Source: Harriotta raleighana (lineage: Eukaryota). From it: 64,000 bases of DNA. The notes under the pieces were generated by a model, which ran no database searches, was not told where the DNA came from, and worked only from the letters and a program-made list of their open reading frames with translations. Shown here in pieces: positions 2,776 through 50,000 of the stretch. The stretch lies in contig JBNZDD010013669.1 of the NCBI GenBank assembly GCA_050575255.1, positions 1,074,116 to 1,138,115 of the forward strand, in the 5' to 3' direction. The position numbers and the translations under genes were made by a program. Within the stretch, counting starts at the first letter, position 1. Each line of letters begins with the position of its first letter.

Positions 2776-5015
2776 GAAGACAACTACTCCTACAGGATAG
2801 AATCTTTCTTTTTCTCTCTTCTTCCCCCGCCCCCACTCCCATGAAGATTTGTCATTCTTTACGCCAACTCACAAGGGAGTTCATTTTTCAACCTGGATGT
2901 TAAATCTGGTTTACAAGAATTGGCCATTCAAAGCAGTAAATCTGTCATAATTGAAACTCGAGAGGCATTAGAATTACAGCTAGGACAAATAATGATGTCA
3001 ACCTTGACTTGGAGGATTTATTTTGTGTTATAGGAATTCGATATTAGCTCATTGTGTTTCATAGTTAGCTCTTTTGGTGGGACATGATTCTTCAGCAATT
3101 ATAGTCTGGATAATCCTGGTCACAGACATTTCTGTGTTGCCTGATAGGAGATGAGCTTTTGTGCTTTATGATGTGGGATTGATTCCTCTTTCTTATTTTT
3201 GTCTCTCTTCAGAAGTAATACTCTTCTGGTAGTAATTTTTTCGCCCACAAATACACAATCACTACACTTTACAGTATATTCTGTGAAGCACTTTTAAGAC
3301 GTGTTAAAGATGTGATAAGGCACTTTATAAAATACAAGGATTATTATTATTAATATTATTACTTTCCTAGACTGCATGAAAATTCTAGTTCATTTCAAGG
3401 ATGGGATTAGTATTTTGATCCTATAAGACTAACATTGAGGAGAGTTGTTGTATTCCCCTTATTTAACAGTAAGCATGGTTCAAATACTCCTACAAAATAG
3501 AATGTTTACTTGTTACTGATTCTGCTCATGTGCTATTCACTCTCAGGGTTAATTTAGTTCGATTTTTAAGATGCTTTTATAGAGTGCTGATCCCCAAACC
3601 ATCTTGCGATGTATATACAGTACTTGTATATTATAGGTCACTTTCACTATGAGGAGGGTATACATTGGGCCTAAAAATATTTATACAGTATCCAGGTGGA
3701 ATTTCTCCTCAACAGTGTCAATTGGGACTGATTAAATGCAAATGTGTATTGATATTGTAAATGAACCACAAACCTAATGACTATGGCCATTTATCATAGG
3801 AACTCCAATGTAAGATATGCCTTGAGGAATAGAGTCTCATATTCTATGCAAATGGAATTCCAAGTGTTGGTTTTATATCTACTGTATCTATATTATATAT
3901 ATATATATAGTACATATTTATTAGACCACATTGCATAATAAGGCAGCACACCCTTTTAATTTAAGGGGATTTTAATTTAATGTGTGCATTATGAGTAATT
4001 TTTCTTGACTGCATTATTATCATGACGGAGCAAATACAATTTGTCAGACACAAGGTGTAAGCCAATTTAATGTGATACTGTATCCATTTCCATGAGGAAC
4101 AGAATGATAAACATTTGTTAATCGTTAAGAAGTATTTGTTTAATAAAAATGAAGCCAATTCAGTTACTTAGGATTGTTCAATGATCTCTGAATTACATTG
4201 TATTGCCAGTTGGCAATAAAATCTTCATTTGACTATAAAATCTGCTTGAGAGAACCATAGAACAAACCCAAGCAAGACTTCATTGGACGAAGGCTGAAGT
4301 AGTGCACTCAAGAAGTCTTGAAAGAACTATTTTTGTATTTTCATACTAATTCTCTAAAACTTTGGCATTCCTTTTGCCAAAGAAAAATCAAAATACAGAT
4401 GAAACTATTCTGAATCATAACCTTGTTCTCTGCACTAAAACGTGTGGAAGACACTCAGAGGTAAAGCGAGTTCTCAAGCCCAGATTCCAGTGTGTTATAT
4501 GCTTCATTTTAGATCATGGGTCATTGGAAATTACAGCACAGAAGGAGGTGATTTGGAAGTCTTCTGTTAGGATCTCATTTTAACCTTTTCTGTTTCAATG
4601 AAAATAGCTTAATTTAGCAAGCCTCTCATCTTACCTATAAAGCCCTCAACCCTGGAATCCTCCCCTGACCTACAATTTCGGTAATGCATCTCTTACCCGT
4701 TGAGCTCAGTTAGATTAACCCACTCAGGTGATTGGATACCAGAGAAATGTGCTGGGAGTTGATTGCAGACAAATAACTAAAGCAGTATACACTTATTCAA
4801 TTTTTACAGGGATGATTACACTTTTAACATATTTTGCCCACTGCTTAATGTTGAAAGCCATGAGCTTAGTAATATGGTGTATTATTCAATGGTTGCTAGT
4901 TTGTAAAATCATGGAAATTGCATTTATAGAGCTTAATGCATAATTATATGCTTAAAAATAACATGTAAGCACTGCTTAAGGACTTTTTGATCTTATACAT
5001 ATTTGTCATTTTCAG

Positions 5016-38000: not shown

Positions 38001-41000
38001 TGTGTTACCACCAGCATATATTTACATTTATGCTAATAGTACATTCTGTGCTATCGTGCACACTATCCATTACTACATAATTCACTAGTGAAACAGAGAT
38101 ACATTATCAACAAGCATTGGGATCCATCCCTATTTATGTACTATATAGTTCAATTTGCTTTTCCTTTGAAATCTACTGAATGTTTAAACAGTTGTACCAA
38201 TAAACCCAAGCTGTTTTTGTTTTATGGCATGTTAAATAGTTCAGCGTCCACATTGGACAAATTTTCCCTCCTTGTTGGGAGTGAGGGAGAATGAAGTGCA
38301 AATGACTACAGTTTGTGTTAATTGTAATACTCCTTCAGGATCAGTGAGTTCTGAGACCTTCTGTTACCTGCAGTCGCTGTGCATTTGTGGGTGAGTGCAG
38401 CTGCCTATTTGCGTAGAACAATGTCCCGCAAACAGTCAGGCAGTGAATAATCAGGATTAACTGGAAGATTGCTTGCCAGGATAGGCCCCTCTCCTTGTCT
38501 TGAGTAACGTCATGGGTTCTTCAGAGGATAGAATTCAAAATCAACGTCCTCACTTTCAAGGCATTCCATGGCCTTGCCCTCCCGCCACGATACCCCCACT
38601 TCTCTGACCTGCTGAACCCCCTATCAACCAGTCCGCTCCCTCCGTTCAGCAGGCTCTGGCCTGCTCCGTGTCTCCCGCCCGACCTACCCTACCATCAGCG
38701 GCCAGGCATTCAGCTTCTCTGTCCCCACCCTTTGCAATTCCATCCGTCAATCCCTTCGCCTTACTCCCTCACTTTCCTCCTTCAAGACCCGACTCAAGAC
38801 TCTCCTTTTCGACCAAGCGATCAGCTGTCCTCCTATCTTTTTGCCCTACCTCATCCTAACCCTGCCCCCACCACCCCCACATCTACTGCCACATGCTTGT
38901 GTCCTAACTCCCGACTGTTCAGTGCTTTGAGACATCCTCCCGATGTGAGAGACACTTTACAAATGTAATTATGTTGTTGTTGGTATACAACTGAACAGGC
39001 AAACAGACCTTGGTTTAAAGTCTCAACCAAGGATGACACTTCAAATACTCAGTGCTTCCCCCAGCGCTGCATTGGAACATCAGCATACACCGTAAACTCC
39101 ACATGGTGGTTTTTGAACTCACAAACTTCTGACCCAGAATGAGCCAGACAGCATCGAGCTGGTTTCTTAGACAACTTTATAACGTGGCTTAACCTACAAG
39201 AGGATGCCCACACATTTATTATCGTGCAATGAGTTTTCACTTTTTTTCCTTTAAACGTGCACAAAAGTTAAACCTTAAGATCTTTGGCCACTGCAGTTGG
39301 GCAGTTTTTAACAGATTAAGGTTATTTTGCAGATTCAGGAGCTGGAAACCGAAAACAGTGAATTGAAAAAGAAAGTTCAGGAACTGGAGGATAAAGTCAA
39401 GGCTACTCAATCTCCTCAATCACCAGTAAGTGCACAGAAACCAAAGTTAAGTTGCCTTGTTCCATTTTGCTACTGATGATGTTAAACTGTGCAAAATAGA
39501 AAAGTCGGCATTTCACTGCAGAGGAGACCTCCGCACAGTAGATCGTGCAACTCTGCTCTCTATCTCTCCCATCTCCACACATTCTGTCATTACCTTAAAT
39601 GCAGTTTTGAACCTGCATTGATCATTAAGATGAGCAGTTTGTTTTTGCACTCCATGTGATGGATTAAAATGTAGAGCATTTGTTTTTCCCTCAAGCAATC
39701 AGAACAAAAATCTATGTTTATCCGATGCTGTATGAGAGTTTCGTTTTTGATCCATACTTTTGGGTTTAATAATCTCAAAGACCTGTTTAGGCTTTAGTGA
39801 TGTGTTTTCCCTACCAGTTAATAGAAATGGTTCTAAGAAAAAGACTTGCTCGTTCTCTGATTCATTTCTAGTACAGGCAGTCCTCTAGTTACGACGTTTC
39901 GAGGTACGACAATTCGAAGTTACGACACTTAAAATCAGTAAAATTACGTCCGAGTTACATCCAAGTTCTCGAAGTTACGACACTACTATGTAAATACTTT
40001 AGTTGCCCCACGCGCGATAGAAAACTGGAGTCGCCGCTCTCAACACTTACGGGACCACGATACGCGTTCAGGACAGGAACAGGATGGAGGCGAGACGCGA
40101 GTGTGTACTGTACAGGTACTGTGTGAGTCTGTGAGCTCGGCGGGACAGTACTCTCCAGCCTTTAGACTGCGCTACGTCACGTGTGATCTGCGTTGCGCTA
40201 CGTCACGCGTGATCTGCGTTGCGCTACGTCACATGTGATCTCCTGCGTTGCGCTACATCGCGTGTGATCTCCTGTGTTGCGCTACATCGAGTGCCAGACT
40301 CACAATGAAGCCATGTAAGTATAGTAATATTTTATTTTATTTACAGTACTGTACATATTAGGAGGGGTGCAGGGGAGAGAAGGCAGCCCACTATATACTA
40401 CAACTAATCACTGTATGTTACTGTAAGCATTATAGGGGGGTGACTCAACTTATATACAAATTCGACTTACACCACATCTTAGGAACCTAACCCTGACGTA
40501 ACTTGAGGACTGCCTGTACCTTGAATAAGACCATTAATTTGCAGGATTTTGTGTAATACAGTAAAAACTTGTTTATCTGGCATCCACGGGACCTGGCCCG
40601 TGGCGGTTAAAGGTTTGCCGGTTGAACATTTAAAAAAAAATTTTTTTTAGACGGAAATAATTACAAAATAAATACATAAATAATTTACATTTTAAATTAT
40701 TTTAACACATACCATATTAATAATAGATTAAATAATAACAGATAATAACAATATTGTATGGGTATTTTATTGTAAATGTTGTACCAAAAAATAATAGAGT
40801 AAATATAGTAATGACAGATACTGTAATAACAGAATATTGTATGGCTACTTTATTGTAAATGTTGAACAATACTATACAAATAATAGACTAAATACACTAA
40901 TAACAGATACTATAATAACAGAATATTGTATTTGTACTTTATTATTTATAATTAACTTCTGCAATGGCAGCCATGGGAGAAAAACTAAGCGGCATCAGCG

Positions 41001-44000
41001 TGACTTCTTTTTAAAAAAAGGCAGTATCGCGACTTTTAAAAAAAAACGGCAGTAGTGTGACTTTAGGCTCGACTAGCAGCCAGCTGAGTACCTGCACCAG
41101 TACTCGCGTGCGACAGTTGATTCATTAAATGCGTCATCACTATTCTGTCGAATAACTTCCGGGTTATTGAATCAGGACTTTTTTCTTGAGGTTCCGGTTC
41201 AGTGGGGTTTCCGGTTCATCGAGTCACAGATAAACAGGGTTTTACTATATTATGGAACAACCTGATAACCAGTCCATTGTGCTGAGGCCTTCTTTCCTTT
41301 AGTAAAGATTTTAATCGTTTTGCAGTTAAGCATGTGCATTACAAGTGATAATTTGAGTTTACTTGGATGAGACAGATCTGCCAATACAGTCAAGGATTAA
41401 AGCTTCTGGTTATCAACATTATCTATAAATATTTAGGGCTGTTTGTTCTGATCGATTGATCTCAGAATCAAATCACCAAAGAGCATTATAGATTACATTG
41501 TAAGAGTGCAATGCTACTGATTTTATAAACTTTCTGTATTCATGTACCGCCACAAATTGTCACTTGTGTATAGCTGTGAGTTACACAGTTAATCTGTCTT
41601 TACCAAACTGCAAAACTTCATGTGTCTTCAGAATTAACTGGAGGTTGTTTACTGACACTCCAACCACTTACCAGATAGAGTGTAATGTTTACTGATACAT
41701 AACAGAGCACTAAGAATGAAATGGATAGAACATATGCCAATACTATATTTTCCATAAATATAATGGATCAATTTCTAAACAGAACAGGTTTTGCTACAAT
41801 TTTTTCCAAAGTTCAGGAAATTTGATGCTCTATGTAAGTTTACTCTTCTACATAATCAAGCTGCTGCTCTTTAAGATGTAGCTCAGTTGGTAGTACTCTT
41901 GGCTTTTGAGTCAGAAGGCTCTGGGTTCAAGTTCCATGATGGGACTTTCAACTCAACTCGTATAGATTGACATTCCATTCTAATTCTGGAGGTGTGCTGC
42001 ATCCTTCAAATGAAATGTGCTCTTTAATATCCACCTGAACAGGCAGTTGGGACCTCAGTTTAATGTCTCTTCCAAAGGATGCCACCTCTGAAAATGCAAC
42101 ACACCACTAAACACTGTATTGGAACATCTGCTAGATTATGTGAGTTTGAATTCCAATGTGGGGCTTGAACCAAGAATATTCTGATTTCGGCAAGAGTGCT
42201 AACAACAGGCTGATGAAAATTAGCAGCTAGTTCATCTAACAGAGTTTTAGGGCAAGTGTACAACAACAACAAAAAAATGATATTTGTATAACGCCTTTCA
42301 CATCAGGTGGACATCCCAAGGAGCCAGACAGTCAATGTTTCAGACCCGAGCTGGGGTCAGGATCGGAGAGGTTGGAGGGAAAGGAGGGGATTTGGGGTGC
42401 CAATAGAACCGATGAATAGGAGGGTCATGAGGCGGGACGTGAAAGAGGCCAGAGAAGGGGCAAGGCGGAAGGACCGCGGGAATGAATTCCAGACGTTGGG
42501 GGCAGAGTAGCTGAAGACTCGTCTTCCAATGATGGGTCGGGGAACACGGAGCCCACTGAGCATAGGGAGTGGGCAGGTTGGTAGGGATTTGGACGCTGCA
42601 AAAGTAGGGTGAGGAAAGGAGGAGTGCTTTAAAGGTGAGGACCAAGATCTTGAAATGAATACTCTTGGTGTCGGGCGAGAATGGTCGAGATGGGGTCGCG
42701 GAGCTTGCAGCAGTAGAGGACACAGGACGTAGGGTAGTATTTACTGCTAAGGATTATTAATATTATTATTGATGTGGTTCCATGAGCAGCTATGAAGAGT
42801 AAATAAGATGATTCAGAAGGAAATATTTTTGAATGAAATAGCTTCCTATTCTCATGCCATTTTGAACATATTTTATAATTTTCCTTATGCACTTTCACTT
42901 TTTTTGCAAAATATTAATCCTCATATACGAACAGATAATAATAATCCTTGTATTTGATATAGCGCTTTTCACATCTTCTAGATTCTCAAAGCGCATCACA
43001 GAATATACTGTAAAGTGAATTGCCAATTGTGCAGAGCAGTATCCCACAAACAACCGTGGATTGAAATGACCAATTTTTTTTAAGGGATTATTATTTAGGA
43101 TTGATATATGGCTATGAACTTGTCATTAATAGTATTTAGTTGTGGAGATTAGTTTAATGTCAATTGGAAACAAATTGTGAGTTTTGCTAGGTATTTAATG
43201 TCTGGCATTTTGTGATTTATGCACCAGTATCGATAAATTACTTTCTAATGAGCAAGTGCAATCCATGCAGAAAATATGAAAGTAAACTTCATCATTATCT
43301 TTCGCAAATCCAGCTAATAATTACAAACTGCAAATTTGTACCAAGGATTTGGGTCGAATAACAGGCAGCATATCATAGTTTAGTTGCCTTACATTCTCGG
43401 CATGTTTTTCTCATGGTGTACATGCATTTTTTCCTCATGATTTCTAGTCTTATCTAGGAGGAATGATCATTTTAGTGATACAGTTAACACTCGCCGAACG
43501 TGACTTTCTCGATTGCGAATTCAACTATGTGCTTCACTTTTTTGAGTAAAACGCACGTAAAACTTGCGTGTGTGCGCTGGCATGCAAGGACGCCGGCCAC
43601 GCATGATGCACTCTTGGGAAATCACTTCCTTCTTTCAACCTGCCAGTTTGTCTCAGCAGTCATCCACTGAAAACTTACCTGCTGCTGCATCTTCTCCCTC
43701 TGCCCTGGAGGGGGGAAGCTGTCTGTCTGTGTCTATTATTAAACTTACCTTGGGTTTGTACAGCCATTTGCGGAACCTATTCATGGTGACAGCTTCTGTG
43801 TTGGGTCTGGCTTCGTCGCCTCGCTGGGCGGCTGCCTGCTGGGCTGAAGCGGCTTTACAGGCATTGGTGGTTCTCTGCCCTCTCCTCTCCCCTCCCCAGC
43901 GGTTCTCTGCTCTCTCCTTTCCACTCCCCTCCCTTCCCCGGTGGCTCTCTGCCCTCTCCTCTCCCTGGCTGCCCTCTCCCCTCTCCAGCTGCCCTCTCTC

Positions 44001-47000
44001 CAGTTGCTCTCTGCCTCCCTCCCGGGCTCCCTCTGATTTGCCCACTTCCCGAGTGATAGGGGAGATGAGAGCAGGGAGAGCAGCGAGAGTGGGCCAGCCA
44101 GCTGAAGTCCGACTTAGTACGTACCTTGCATTGGTCGGGTGTGGATACGCCTGGAGGCTTGAGGTTGGTGGCCTGTTGCTGGATTCCCCTAACCCCCACT
44201 TTTCTCATTATTTGTTAAGCTTACCCAACGCGATTTTACTGAGTGCGAGGTTTTCTAGGAACGTAACCCCCGTGATTAACGAGGGTTAACTGTAACTATT
44301 GATAATGGAATCATAACTCAACTATTTACCATTGCCTTCAGGCGATACGGGACAATGAGAAAAGAGTGAAATGAAAGAAGTGGAGCTTACAGGAAGCAAA
44401 AGATACATTAGTCAATATTGTAATCATATCTTGCTTTTTTATTGATACCATCCATAATACATTGTCCACTGAATTAAGCTTTCATAGTCAATTATAGAGC
44501 GTGTCTCGTTACTTTGATTTATTCTGATAAGTAAGCGTAGGGTCACCCACCAACTTGTTAATTGTTTATCGTTAAAGCTGAGCATGATTAGAAACAATTT
44601 AAAACCTGAATAATACAGAAGAAAATAGAATGAAAATACTGTATCAAGATATTTGTGAAAGGATAATGTATCCCTGTGGGATCATGCAATCAAAATTCCA
44701 CTAAAGACGGGAGCTTAACTTGATTCTGTTTTACAAACTCAATTTGCAAAGAACCTACATGTTGTATAGTCAACCAATCATATGCAAATATTTCCTCCAA
44801 ATTTACATCTTTCCCAATTAGGTAACTTCTGCATCGTACTTCTTCCCATCCCCCAACAGTTTATACAAAGAGAAGTAAGGCCTTTGGTGTTCTCACCAGC
44901 TCACGCTGGGGTTAGTGACCTTGCCCAAGTGGCTGTTCTTTCTGTGTGAAGAGTCCCATCTAGTGGACAAGGAATTAACTGTAAAACTCCATCACACCAG
45001 TTCCAGCCAAGCTCCACTTGCTCTCTATTGCTGAATGGATCGCTTTCAAGATCCTCAAACTCATTTTCAGATCCCTTCATGCCCTTGCACCTCCTTACCC
45101 AGTGATAAGCTAATGTTAATAGTAAAACTTCATATCAGTAATTATCAATGAAAGTAATGGTAATAGTTATACATTTATTGTCACCTACCCCTCCCCTTGG
45201 CTCGGTGTAACACTGTTAAGGGTTGTGGGACACTGCCCTGCGTGAGAGCCGATATCAATTTATATGCAAGTTGTTGTTGTGAAAGTGGGTCTGAATGTCA
45301 AATTGAAACTTCGCTTGTTTATTGATTTGTTTTCCACTGATAGGAGTTGCTGATGCATGAACCAGCAATGATTTAGCCTAAAATGTAGCACTGAGCCATG
45401 GAAAAATAACACAAATCTGAAGGCCTCAGATTTTAGACCTCTATCTTGTATATGATTGCCATTGATCTTAAAAGTTTACGGTGTGAGCTCACAAGTATGT
45501 TTATATCAGCAGGAAGATAGACTAAAGACAATTTGTCATACACCACAAACTAAAGATCAAAGCTCCTTTCTCTCTATTGCTTATCTTTTTTAGATGGAGG
45601 ACTTCCCACATAAGGAACAGGCCTCCAGGCAAGATCCCCTCATTCCAGCATCAGTTGATGTTTTTTTGCCATGGGAAAGGCCAAAAGGCTGCTCTATGGT
45701 ACAGAATCGTTCAATGATGCTCTATATGAAGGGTAGGAAGAAGCAGTGTCAAGTACAATAGTTATGTATAACTGCCAATTTAAAGAGGATTTTTTCTATA
45801 CAACAACAAAATTACATTTATAGAGCGCCTTTTTTATGTCTGTCTTGAGATGCCCTCACTTCGGGAGGGCGTCTTAAGGTTTTGAACACTCAGGTCGGGA
45901 CCCGAACAAGGGAGAGGGGTAGGAGGGAGGGACGGGAGAGAGTTAGGAGGAGAGAGGGGGAGAGTTAGGAGGGCAGCAGAAGGCACAATCGAAGAGGAGA
46001 GTCTTGAGACTGGCCTTGAAGAAGGCAAGGGAGGGAGTGAGGCTAATGCACTGTGGGATGGAGTTCCAGAGTGTAGGGGCAGCGAGGCTGAAAGCCTGTC
46101 CACTGATGGTTGGGCAGGTCAGGCAGAGGACATGGAGCAGACCAGAGCCTGCTGAACGGAGGGGGAGGTTCATAGGGGGACAGCAGATCAGAGAGATAGT
46201 GGGGCCGGCAAGGTGTGAATGACCTTGAAGGTGAGGACTAGGATCTTGAATTTGGTCCTCTGGGGGATGGGGAGCCATTGAATGGGGAGCCATGCAATAG
46301 TAGGAGTGATGTGGTTGCGGAGCTTTGTGTGGGTGAGGCTATGAACTGCAGAGTTCTGGATGATCTGCAGCTTGTGGAGGGAAGAGCCAATAAGGCCGAC
46401 GAGGAGGGAATTTCCATAGTAGAGCCTTGATGTGACGAATGCGTGGATTAGGGTTTCGGCAGCTTGAGGGGTGGGCAGTGGCGGAGTCTGGCGACGTTGT
46501 GAAGGTGGTGGTGCCAGAATTGACCTCAAGGAGACATGAATCATCAGGTCTGCAAGCCTGGGATCAAGGTAAACTCAAATTCAAGCAGGCTGCAGGACTG
46601 TAAAATTAATAGGAGTAAAGCAAGATTTTACTGGTAGGTACATGAAAAGGACATCAGAAGGAGTTAATAATGCAGCTCTTCCTGCAACTCTGCACAACCT
46701 TGTATGGTCTTGAACTCAGGCTCCCTTGATGGCTGCTGGAAATAAATATGCATGTCAGGTGAGTACAGGGTCAGGATCAGCTAGACTGACCGTACAGTTA
46801 AATAGCCTTGTGCATGTAGAGTGGCTGCTTGGGATGAATGGACCTGGGCAGGCCTGACAATGGCTGTAATGTACGAATAGTGTTCATAAAAAGTCATTTT
46901 TTACAAATGCGGTTTCTTTCTCGATGATTTATCTGTGGTTTTTCACCTGATTGAATACAATGATTAAACGTGGCACCTAGAGAGCACTTTATCTTTACAC

Positions 47001-50000
47001 TTTCCAATGTCTAGCCTTTTTTATGTTTCTTTAAAATGATGTCAATGCTCATCCATCCACAAAACTCGCAGTCACTGAACTTTACAGTAAAATTCTGTGA
47101 AGAGCTTTGGGGTGTCTTCCCATTGTGAAAAGCACTACACTTACTGTATGAATTATTATTTGTGTATTGATCTTTGGACATTGATTTATATCAGTGCCTC
47201 GAAGGATTGTGTTGGTAAAGTTTTTTATCCAAATGCTATTGTTCCGCTTGTTTCCTTTTGGAAACTGACTCTATGGACCACAATGGACTATTAATATTTA
47301 GTGTTCATTAAAAACAGTGAAATACTGATGGGAACAAGCTTCTAGTAAACTGTAATGTGTGCTCTCTTGTTTAATCTAGAGTATGCAACTGTTAGTTTAC
47401 TTTGTGTGATGTGCGAATGATATGTGAATAACATGATTTTATATTCCAGGCTTTTAACAATTTAATTCTATCTTCTGTTATTTTATGTGTGAACAAATCA
47501 CTGTCACATGGTTTAGTCTGGCTTACATTTAAAATTGTACCACCATGTGTCATCCAGTGTGTTGGCATGACCGCTGTTGATCAAAGAATCACGGAGAAAG
47601 AGAGGAAAGGACAAAGAAGCATTGCAGCCATCTCAAAGCGCTTCACAAGAGAAACTGTAAAGTGGATTTGTTTTACATTTTGTGTGCAAAATGTGCAGAA
47701 CAATTTTTAAACCGGGTGGAAAATGAATTGAGAAACAAAATTCTTACCTTAAAATTATCCCAAGTAAATATGTAAATGCAGATATTTTGAAGGTGTTTCT
47801 GTGAACCAACTCTTCGTATCCTTTGAAGATTGTGTTTCTCTTTGTGTGGTTTTCTTTCCAGCTGTTGCACATCAATTCAAGTAACCAACAGCAATTGCAC
47901 CAAAGGCCGTCAACTCTCTTCTGGTCCCATAATATGGAGACTGTTTCATTTCCTGAAATAGCTTCTTTTACGCTTACCCCAACAAGTCCCTCTGGCACCA
48001 GTATAACGGGACTGCTAACACCACCTCCACCCAAAACCACTCTACAGAGAGCAATCAATGGATTCAGTATTCCAAGACCTCGTGTAATTTCTGCATGCAT
48101 GTTTCCTGTTGTATATTATATTTGTGGGATTGCTATGCATATCTTGTGTATGAAGAAGAAATGCAGGGTTTCTATCATAGCTGACTGATCAGTTTCCTTT
48201 GAGAGGCTGTGGATATCATTTTCATTCAAAATCAGAACATTTTCATTTGAAAAATGGCATTGAAATGGGTGCGAGGACACAAAGGACCAGAAAAACAGAA
48301 TTTTTAGGGATATCGTGAATGCAGTGAATAATGCAATTTGACTAGTTAATTGACTCAACCAGACATTGTTCTGTGAGATTCTGTGTCCCATGTAACACAT
48401 CTAGTTAGCAACTTGATCATAGATTAATCTATCTTTTGCCAGTGTACACAATCTGATTAAAGTATAATGAATTTATTTCTGCAAGACAAAAAAGTTACTT
48501 CATTGCTTCTGAATTTAAGAATTTTCCAAAATCCGCATTAATTTATATTTCAAAAGTAGTGAGTTCAAAAATAAAATCATGTGGAAACACTGAAGACTTG
48601 AAAGCCCCTTTCTGGTATTTGCACGTGGTGCAAAATTAGATTTGACAATAAAATTTATATTTATATAATTTATATTTATATAGCGTTTTTCACATCGGTA
48701 AGTCTCAAAGTATCTTTTCTTAAATGTTACTTTTACTTTTGAGACAAAATACGCCCATCTCTTACCTTGGAACTAGTCGCTACAACGAATGAATATCCTG
48801 AAGCTTTTACCATTTGCTACCAGATCTCAAATGGGTCACTACCGCCTAACGGGGGGAAAGTCTCTTAAATTTGGGCCATCTCAGTAATTTGGCTTCTAGC
48901 TCAAAAATAACAACTTTGGTGAGGCTTCCTCGGAATATTCCTTGGAGACAGAATGAGCAGATTTTGAACAGGAAATGTGCAATCCTTTGAAGGATTTTGA
49001 CAACCTTTTTTAAACATACTCAACACTGCATTACTTCTATGCATTGTTAGGTCATCGATTGTGCAAAATGTATTGTGCCTCTGTTTTGAAGTTGTGTGGT
49101 AAACCTCGTATTGCTGACCGCATGCACTGTTTGCAATGAATGATTACCGTCCGCTCCCTATTCACCTTGTATTGTTGGCTGGACTTGTTTTAGAATTAGT
49201 GTTAATTTTGCGGGATTTCTAGACTGAATGACTTCATTTAAACATCTGAAAAAGAACTCCTGTTGAGAAGTACATTACATGGACTTGAGGGAATCCCACT
49301 CTGAAAATAGATTGAGATGGAGCTGAATCTTCTGGATTTCTTAAGCATACTAAGAAACATACTTTCTAAGTAAGAAATCTAATAAACAAATCCCTTTCCA
49401 GAAGTACCACAAAATTCACTCCAAAAACATTGCTTCTTAATGCATTTCCACTAATTTATTCTTCTCTTTACTTCCTAGGGAGGGAGTGTGACAGTTAGAT
49501 CTCCAAGTACAGACCTTTTTGATATGGTTCCATTTTCACCTGCGTCCCCTCTTTCACCAACTCCATCCAGCAATGGCACAGAGCTGCCTCCATTACCTGT
49601 CAGAGCAGCAGAACTCAGTGAGTGTTTGTACTGTTCCACTATGATACTTGATGTGATGATGTTTGTAGATTATTTTAATGGCAGGTTTATTTTTCATGTT
49701 TCACATGCTCAGCTCAATCAGCTCAAATGTTCATCAATAATACATACACTGTAAGTAACATTCTAGGTCATTTCATGGATAAAAAAAATGTAATCTCAGA
49801 GATAGTATACATAAGTATCTGAGTTCATTTATATACGTGTTGTAGATGATGCATATATTGTAGGTAATGATCGTGATAATAGATTACACTGCGTACATCA
49901 AAAGTGTGACACACAATACATCAACAATATCATAATATGTCAGTTGTCTTGGGGAGCACAAGATCATTTTCTCTGCTGGCCTTCCGATACAACTTTAAAT

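What the first reader, a model, noticed from the sequence alone, without database searches (positions are those of the whole stretch)
43481..44292. DNA transposon that captured the start exon of an unrelated gene (ZFYVE28/LST2): a Pack-TIR-like exon-shuttling element
Seen: an 812-bp element with TIRs (cagttaac[a/c]ctcg) and a TA TSD. On its minus strand it carries a CpG-rich 5'-UTR-like leader, a Kozak-like gtcaccATG, 12 intact codons [12 protein letters not shown] (43784-43749), a consensus donor AAG|gtaagt and intron-like sequence. A second strong donor (gcagcag|gtaagt) lies at about 43673-43680. Knowledge: [12 protein letters not shown] is the recalled conserved N-terminus of ZFYVE28, whose first coding exon ends after this K; gene capture by TIR elements is known (Pack-MULEs, animal Pack-TIRs). 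Inference: the retained donor and intron imply DNA-level capture, not retrotransposition. The element is a mobile start-codon plus splice-donor cassette, here antisense to GULP1, that could seed new first exons or antisense/small RNAs against ZFYVE28.
Basis: partly seen in the sequence, partly recalled or inferred. Interest (0 to 1): 0.88.

Follow-up and report, generated by a model that had tools for sequence, protein, structure and literature searches.

The report
Transposon mass-copied a gene's first exon
A small jumping DNA element in a chimaera-like fish carries the start of the ZFYVE28 gene, likely picked up once in a DNA-repair slip, and spread it to at least 92 places (a piece of it to about 1,300); the copies look like decaying passengers and no use by the host is shown.

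Summary
The 812-bp element (13-bp TIRs, TA on both sides) is a non-autonomous pogo/Tigger-type MITE in a GULP1 intron. The donor is in the same genome: single-copy ZFYVE28/LST2 exon 1, without transposon arms, ending at K12 (AAG|GT), with exon 2 starting RSDPQLL. The founder took donor bases -761 to +168 (from the ATG) into a short repeat of an empty parent MITE. 92 exon-bearing copies were verified, and a 5'-UTR 25-mer occurs at 1,323 places. Corrections: the 'second donor' is the antisense of the transposase tail, not captured DNA; the leader's CpGs have largely decayed; splice donor and ATG mutate at background rate. A weak deficit of amino-acid changes is borderline. Nothing shows chimeric or antisense transcripts. 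It is a Pack-TIR, but far more amplified than the 3-5-copy cases I saw in the animal survey. Bat Helitrons did the same with NUBPL exon 1.

The parts
43479..43480 (.). TA target-site duplication, left
   Evidence: TA on both sides in 44 of 55 exon-bearing places with both TIRs
43481..43493 (+). TIR at the transposon's 5' end (CAGTTAACACTCG)
   Evidence: exact TA+TIR 15-mer at 3,950 places in the genome, control 1
43494..43618 (+). 5' subterminal arm of the parent pogo/Tigger-type element (with deletions)
   Evidence: matches the 5' ends of transposase-bearing relics and empty MITEs
43619..43696 (+). Transposase C-terminal tail fragment; its reverse strand holds the 'second donor' (GTAAGT at 43678-43673)
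   Evidence: 77/78 nt to L129, a 613-residue frame with CENP-B_N, HTH_Tnp_Tc5 and DDE_1
43697..43748 (-). Captured ZFYVE28 intron 1 start with donor GTAAGT (matches donor to about +75; the last ~10 nt fall where the donor assembly has a poly-C run and an N)
43749..43784 (-). Captured ZFYVE28 coding exon 1, [12 protein letters not shown]
   Evidence: 34/36 nt to donor; donor exon maps to residues 1-12 of C. milii LST2
43785..44068 (-). Captured ZFYVE28 5' leader: proximal part = donor -150..-1, distal part = donor -761..-600; the GA-rich minisatellite between is shortened
   Evidence: local alignments 178/209 and 140/151 identical aligned bases; same -761 start across copies
44069..44279 (+). 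3' subterminal arm of the parent element, starting with its short GA-rich repeat
   Evidence: 75-84% to the 3' ends of transposase relics and empty MITEs
44280..44292 (-). TIR at the transposon's 3' end
44293..44294 (.). TA target-site duplication, right
39426..49478 (+). Host GULP1 intron that holds the element (captured exon antisense to GULP1)
   Evidence: PTB exon at 36298-36438 matches GULP1 in PDB 6ITU, E 1e-25; flanking exons 39333-39425 and from 49479 read from sequence, placed in GULP1 partly by recalled motifs

Best explanation
This is a non-autonomous pogo/Tigger-type transposon carrying the 5' leader, first coding exon and intron start of ZFYVE28, likely taken up once by template-switch repair and then copied widely as a passenger that now appears to decay without function. 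Steps: (1, shown) a ~2-kb transposase element gave deletion derivatives that keep the two arms and the transposase tail. (2, shown) In one of these, donor bases -761 to +168 sit in antisense inside the parent's short CT/GA tandem repeat. (3, inferred) The repeat broke or stalled a fork, and repair switched to the ZFYVE28 CpG island and back, helped by about 7 nt and 2-4 nt of shared sequence at the two joints. (4, spread shown, enzyme inferred) Transposase from related autonomous copies cut and pasted the founder into TA sites. Later internal deletions gave the short form in this window. (5, inferred) A more numerous sister group kept only the distal leader. (6, mostly shown) The copies were CpG-eroded and their ATG and donor are not protected.
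For: Donor: of 19 places coding the 12 residues, 18 have transposon arms; one (L070) has none and lies in CpG-rich sequence. Its upstream 266 nt are single-copy. C. milii LST2 maps onto it exon by exon, exon 1 ending at K12; 84 of 120 homologues contain the peptide. Copies: 92 exon-bearing places besides the donor; 80 have both arms, 11 have one, and 1 has only a TIR remnant. TA on both sides in 44 of 55; only two pairs share flanks. Single founder: similarity to the donor starts at -761 in 18 of 28 full copies and between -758 and -730 in the other 10. 18 of 92 keep the far joint, donor +160..+168 fused to the parent repeat. The copy majority differs from the donor by 4/74, 7/100, 0/36 and 2/26 along the captured block. 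The -761 segment is in none of 33 transposase-hit loci tested. Empty parents exist. Decay: donor core 11 changes vs 12.7 expected; ATG 13 vs 12.0; CpG columns 27% vs 8% elsewhere; the CpG in codon 5 is changed 41 times in 179. A related organism's DNA contigs pile on the distal leader at depth 1,800-8,900, against 46.6 on the single-copy promoter, so the family is likely older than that split.
Against: Amino-acid changes are somewhat fewer than a neutral model expects: ratio 0.58-0.64, p 0.002-0.035; 3.7-5.6% of control windows are as low. With a narrower background the GT showed 17 changes vs 9.2 expected, which did not hold with the wider one. 54 of 85 full-span copies still have ATG, open frame and GT, so use by some copies is not excluded. 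Contigs of a more distant organism fit the donor only to -788 and then run on unlike it, so host ancestry of the -761..-130 block is not shown by an outgroup. The sister group's arms are more diverged from their majority (median 8.7%) than those of the exon group (5.9%), which does not fit a simple exon-first order. The repair mechanism rests on joints only.
Confidence: 0.8

Rival explanations
1. Two-step origin: the GA-rich block in the ZFYVE28 leader came from an older element of the sister group, and that shared sequence later guided a switch that captured the exon and intron start.
For: The sister group is more numerous (21 of 30 sampled) and more diverged in its arms. Contigs of organism A leave the donor at -788.
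Against: The donor has no arm sequence, and its match starts exactly where the element stops matching the transposase-bearing parent. Divergence from the donor is even along the block. The sister majority carries the exon group's differences from the donor plus two more (that sample was picked by a 25-mer covering two of those sites). Five of seven long exon copies are collinear with the donor from -761 to about -490 at 82-87%.
Confidence: 0.15
2. Working exon shuttle: some copies act as first exons that add the 12 residues to host proteins, or give antisense or small RNAs that act on ZFYVE28.
For: 50 of 92 copies keep AAG|GTAAGT exactly; 54 of 85 keep ATG, frame and GT; borderline deficit of amino-acid changes. 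In bats a Helitron-borne NUBPL exon 1 supplies a splice site to an SGSM3 transcript (PMC4224331, passage).
Against: The capture starts inside the leader, downstream of the single-copy promoter region. No copy stands out for kept CpGs (best 31 of 47, range 25-66%). Donor and ATG change at background rate. In this window the cassette is antisense to GULP1.
Confidence: 0.12
3. RNA-mediated copy, segmental duplication or chance likeness.
For: None found.
Against: Intron sequence to +168 is carried with the exon. Flanks are unrelated and end at TA-TIR. The match to the donor covers several hundred bases.
Confidence: 0.02

Closest known systems
Animal Pack-TIRs (Tan et al. 2021, PMC8277862; read: abstract, sections 7, 9, 10, 14, passages, supplement searches)
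   Same: Host sequence inside a TIR element, armless parental copy, short shared sequence at joints, TcMariner host element (115 of 370 cases), multicopy by later transposition.
   Different: There only four (1.4%) were multicopy; the examples I saw had three and five transposition events, and elephant shark had 0 Pack-TIRs. Here there are at least 92 exon copies and 1,323 leader hits. Their filter (90% identity, unique top hit) would likely miss an old high-copy family (inference).
[quoted passage not shown]
   Same: Same kind of cargo and a similar scale (a thousand copies); 5'-end captures amplified most in bats.
   Different: Rolling-circle element, not cut-and-paste. It includes the promoter, and fusion transcripts were reported. 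Neither is shown here.
MER6 MITE with captured V-SINE domain (PMC6887750; abstract and results part 1)
   Same: Tc1/mariner-group MITE made of parent ends plus foreign DNA, amplified to hundreds of copies per genome.
   Different: Its cargo is a SINE, not the first exon of a protein-coding gene.
Plant Pack-TYPE elements, including Pack-Mariner (PMC8903248; passages only)
   Same: Non-autonomous TIR families that carry gene fragments and split into subgroups with different interiors.
   Different: Plants; most Pack-Mariner elements are low copy number.
pogo superfamily, Tigger/pogoR families (PMC7386202; passages only)
   Same: TA target site, TIR under 40 bp, CENP-B_N + HTH_Tnp_Tc5 + DDE_1 transposase in the parent.
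   Different: This element keeps only 78 nt of transposase; Tigger versus pogoR was not tested by tree.

Membership tests
Pack-TIR | Internal sequence flanked by both ends of one TIR element | tested here: met
Pack-TIR | Parental copy identifiable, unique and not flanked by the transposon | tested here: met
   L070: no arms within 1.5 kb, none in the 140 kb held; upstream single-copy; gene structure
Pack-TIR | DNA-level, not retroposed (intron kept) | tested here: met
   intron to +75 in this copy, to +168 in 18 of 92 copies
Pack-TIR | Distinct target sites for multicopy members | tested here: met
   55 places with both TIRs, TA both sides in 44, two pairs share flanks
Pack-TIR | Short shared sequence at breakpoints beyond chance | tested here: inconclusive
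   about 7 nt and 2-4 nt read by eye; low-complexity context, no simulation run
Pack-TIR (survey's 'young' cut-off) | At least 90% identity and 80-120% length against the parent | tested here: not met
   BLAST pieces 74-76% to the donor and minisatellite shortened; this is a search filter, not a biological definition
pogo superfamily (parent) | TA target site and TIR of at most 40 bp | tested here: met
   criterion
pogo superfamily (parent) | CENP-B_N / HTH_Tnp_Tc5 / DDE_1 transposase, DDxD spacing 29-56 | tested here: met
   L129 has all three above cut-off; spacing 30 in L129, 35 in L130, whose first D is N
Tigger family | Placement in the Tigger clade | not tested
   no tree with reference transposases was built; 'Tigger-type' rests on domains and recalled end motifs
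Functional exon shuttle | Chimeric spliced transcript from a copy | not testable with these tools
   no RNA run holding the host's sequence was offered
Functional exon shuttle | Constraint on ATG, frame and donor | tested here: inconclusive
   ATG and donor at background rate; codon test borderline

The most novel reading that the evidence does not exclude
One gene capture founded a major transposon lineage of chimaera genomes, which planted more than fifty intact 'ATG + 12 codons + splice donor' cassettes and over a thousand pieces of the ZFYVE28 leader; some now serve as new first exons on host genes or feed small RNAs that tune ZFYVE28.
Probability: 0.12. Interest if true: 0.78.

Novelty: new variant of a known kind. 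Interest (0 to 1): 0.52.

Why it matters
The one broad survey of animal Pack-TIRs found them nearly always single-copy. This family shows that a vertebrate cut-and-paste element can capture a coding first exon and still spread to roughly a hundred copies, with a fragment of the leader at over a thousand places. Donor, empty parent, founder joints and later deletion forms all survive in one genome, so the capture route can be read directly. Old families like this would probably be masked as plain repeats, so such captures may be undercounted. It also gives about 90 natural replicates for asking whether a ready-made start codon and splice donor are tolerated, purged or used.

Tried and rejected
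RNA: no RNA holder of the host's own sequence was listed (9 runs), so expression and chimeric splicing are untested. In three RNA-like runs of organism A, no contig was laid on donor -761 to about -680; this blank is no evidence on whether that organism has the family. No genomic ZFYVE28 5' sequence of a named outgroup could be read, which leaves the origin of the GA-rich block open. No protein search for fusions of the 12 residues was made; C. milii was the only holocephalan among the 120 listed homologues. Selection against the donor site: suggested, rejected with a wider background and the tail pseudo-donor as control (11 vs 12.7 and 14 vs 11.4). CpG-island-like survivors: none stood out among 48 copies. 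Second donor as a second captured gene: rejected. Parent element beside the donor: no arm match in 140 kb. Orientation bias of copies in host introns: not run, no gene annotation at hand. The source of the sister group's other interior was not searched. Literature: nine searches listed nothing on this family; judged from listings and abstract starts. ZFYVE28 and LST2 had 0 hits in the 12 supplements of PMC8277862. Repbase and Dfam were not available, so the family may already have a name there. The scan's earlier notes gave one unrelated hit.
Full report
Observation. The element is as described: TIRs at 43481-43493 and 44280-44292 with TA outside each, and on the minus strand gtcaccATG, twelve codons and AAG|GTAAGT. 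A TA-anchored inverted pair this good was found once in the region and in none of 60 resamples. The leader is GC-rich but its CpGs are mostly gone (observed/expected 0.44 against 0.73 in the donor). The element lies in a 10-kb GULP1 intron, 39426-49478, with the captured exon antisense (the downstream exons were located partly with recalled motifs).

The donor. A codon pattern for the peptide found 19 places in the genome. Eighteen have transposon arms; L070 (C13645:545417) has none and lies in CpG-rich sequence. A FYVE exon lies 98 kb downstream on the same strand. The large exon of that gene is 87% identical to Callorhinchus milii LST2, so the host is chimaera-like. That protein maps onto the locus exon by exon: residues 1-12 end at AAG|GTAAGA and residue 13 starts after AG. 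84 of 120 homologues contain [12 protein letters not shown]. The 266 nt upstream of the captured block are single-copy.

The family. A 25-mer across the exon-intron joint occurs at 86 places including the donor, control 1. Among all loci held, 92 places besides the donor carry the exon: 80 with both arms, 11 with one, and one with only a TIR remnant. Of 55 with both TIRs, 44 have TA on both sides and only two pairs share flanks. A 25-mer from the distal leader occurs at 1,323 places, control 0. In the first 30 exact hits, 5 were of the exon type, 21 belonged to a sister group with another interior and 4 were unassigned. The exact TA+TIR word occurs 3,950 times. All counts are lower bounds.

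The parent. Five of 30 DDE_1 loci matched parts of the element. L129 encodes CENP-B_N, HTH_Tnp_Tc5 and DDE_1, the layout given for pogoR and Tigger transposases, with TA sites and short TIRs (PMC7386202, passages). Window 43619-43696 is 77/78 nt identical to its last codons, so the 'second donor' is the antisense of the transposase tail. Broken relics of about 2 kb with both TIRs, and empty MITEs with arms plus tail, are present. None of 33 transposase-hit loci has the donor's -761 segment.

The capture. Similarity to the donor starts at -761 in 18 of 28 full copies and between -758 and -730 in the other 10. Eighteen of 92 copies keep the far joint, where donor +160..+168 is fused to the parent's short repeat. 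Both joints fall in the same tandem unit of the parent, so the founder was an insertion of about 930 donor bases into that repeat, and the window copy is a later deletion form. About 7 nt at one joint and 2-4 nt at the other are shared by both templates (by eye, chance not simulated). I infer template-switch repair at a fragile repeat followed by transposition, the route Tan et al. propose for multicopy Pack-TIRs (PMC8277862, section 9). The copy majority differs from the donor by 4/74 in the distal leader, 7/100 in the proximal leader, 0/36 in the codons and 2/26 in the intron, as one event would give.

What counts against this. Contigs of a more distant organism A fit the donor from about -923 to -788 and then run on unlike it. 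Their first 30 loose letters partly resemble the donor up to the joint, but the block beyond is not shown to be ancestral. The sister group is more numerous and its arms are more diverged (median 8.7% against 5.9%). A two-step origin is kept at 0.15.

Age and fate. In 48 distinct TIR-to-TIR copies (of 92; the others lacked a TIR, did not fit the cut or were near-duplicates), non-CpG divergence from the column majority averages 8.0% (3-23%; this copy 5.9%) and CpG columns 27%. DNA contigs of a closer organism B pile onto the distal leader at 40-190 times the depth of the single-copy promoter, so the family likely predates that split (contig depth is no exact copy number). Of 85 copies spanning the exon, 73 keep ATG, 70 keep GT, 54 keep ATG, frame and GT, and 6 have a stop (the sample was partly found by exon patterns, which favours intact copies). 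ATG changes match expectation (13 vs 12.0). The donor core showed an excess with a narrow background (GT 17 vs 9.2) but not with a wider one (11 vs 12.7). Amino-acid changes are fewer than expected (ratio 0.58-0.64), but 3.7-5.6% of control windows are as low, and the CpG in codon 5 is changed 41 times in 179. I read this as roughly neutral decay with a weak unexplained signal. Expression could not be tested.

Comparison. It works like, and by the tested features is, a Pack-TIR. Tan et al. found four multicopy cases (1.4%), with examples of three and five events, and none in elephant shark. Their filter asks for 90% identity and a unique top hit, which this family would likely fail. The nearest match in cargo and scale is a bat Helitron that amplified the NUBPL promoter, 5' UTR, first exon and partial intron to a thousand copies (PMC4224331, passages). 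MER6 is a MITE with a captured SINE domain (PMC6887750). Nine paper searches listed no report of this family; repeat databases and most subscription papers were not searchable.

Verdict. A real, well-resolved gene capture by a pogo-type MITE, unusual for its copy number in a vertebrate cut-and-paste element and for keeping donor, empty parent and founder joints in one genome. New variant of a known kind; no function shown. Interest 0.52.

Noticed in passing
L129 (G000:C13693:2452841-2456383) and L130 (G000:C13631:1748773-1752330): Two pogo-type transposase frames are still open (613 and 642 residues) while their relatives are broken. L129's termini have drifted from the family TIR; L130 has a CpG-rich upstream region, no arm match and N at the first catalytic D. 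Possible domesticated genes.
   Followed up: partly
L183-L212, L098, L113, L115, L120: A more numerous sister group (21 of 30 sampled) shares the -761 joint but has another interior with an A-rich and a CT-rich stretch. It was not found in 33 transposase-hit loci and could be a second capture.
   Followed up: partly
window 43870-44052, + strand: On the GULP1 sense strand the reversed minisatellite gives a pyrimidine tract with AG at 43898-43899 and an open stretch to a GT near 44053, so exonisation from this strand is conceivable.
   Followed up: no
G000:C13645:589600-594400: ZFYVE28 exon 2 appears twice inside a 1,891-bp 100% identical duplicate around an N gap; likely an assembly artefact.
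   Followed up: partly
L070:1014-1405: The ZFYVE28 leader holds a ~390-bp GA-rich minisatellite (period about 22) whose length varies widely among element copies.
   Followed up: partly
L070:1605-1659: Element copies keep a short stretch between the C-run and the +160 motif that the donor assembly lacks at its N, so they may preserve intron sequence missing from the assembly.
   Followed up: partly
L123-L152: The genome has 127 DDE_1 matches, many in open frames of 500-700 residues, with several different CAGT/CAGG-ended TIR families.
   Followed up: no
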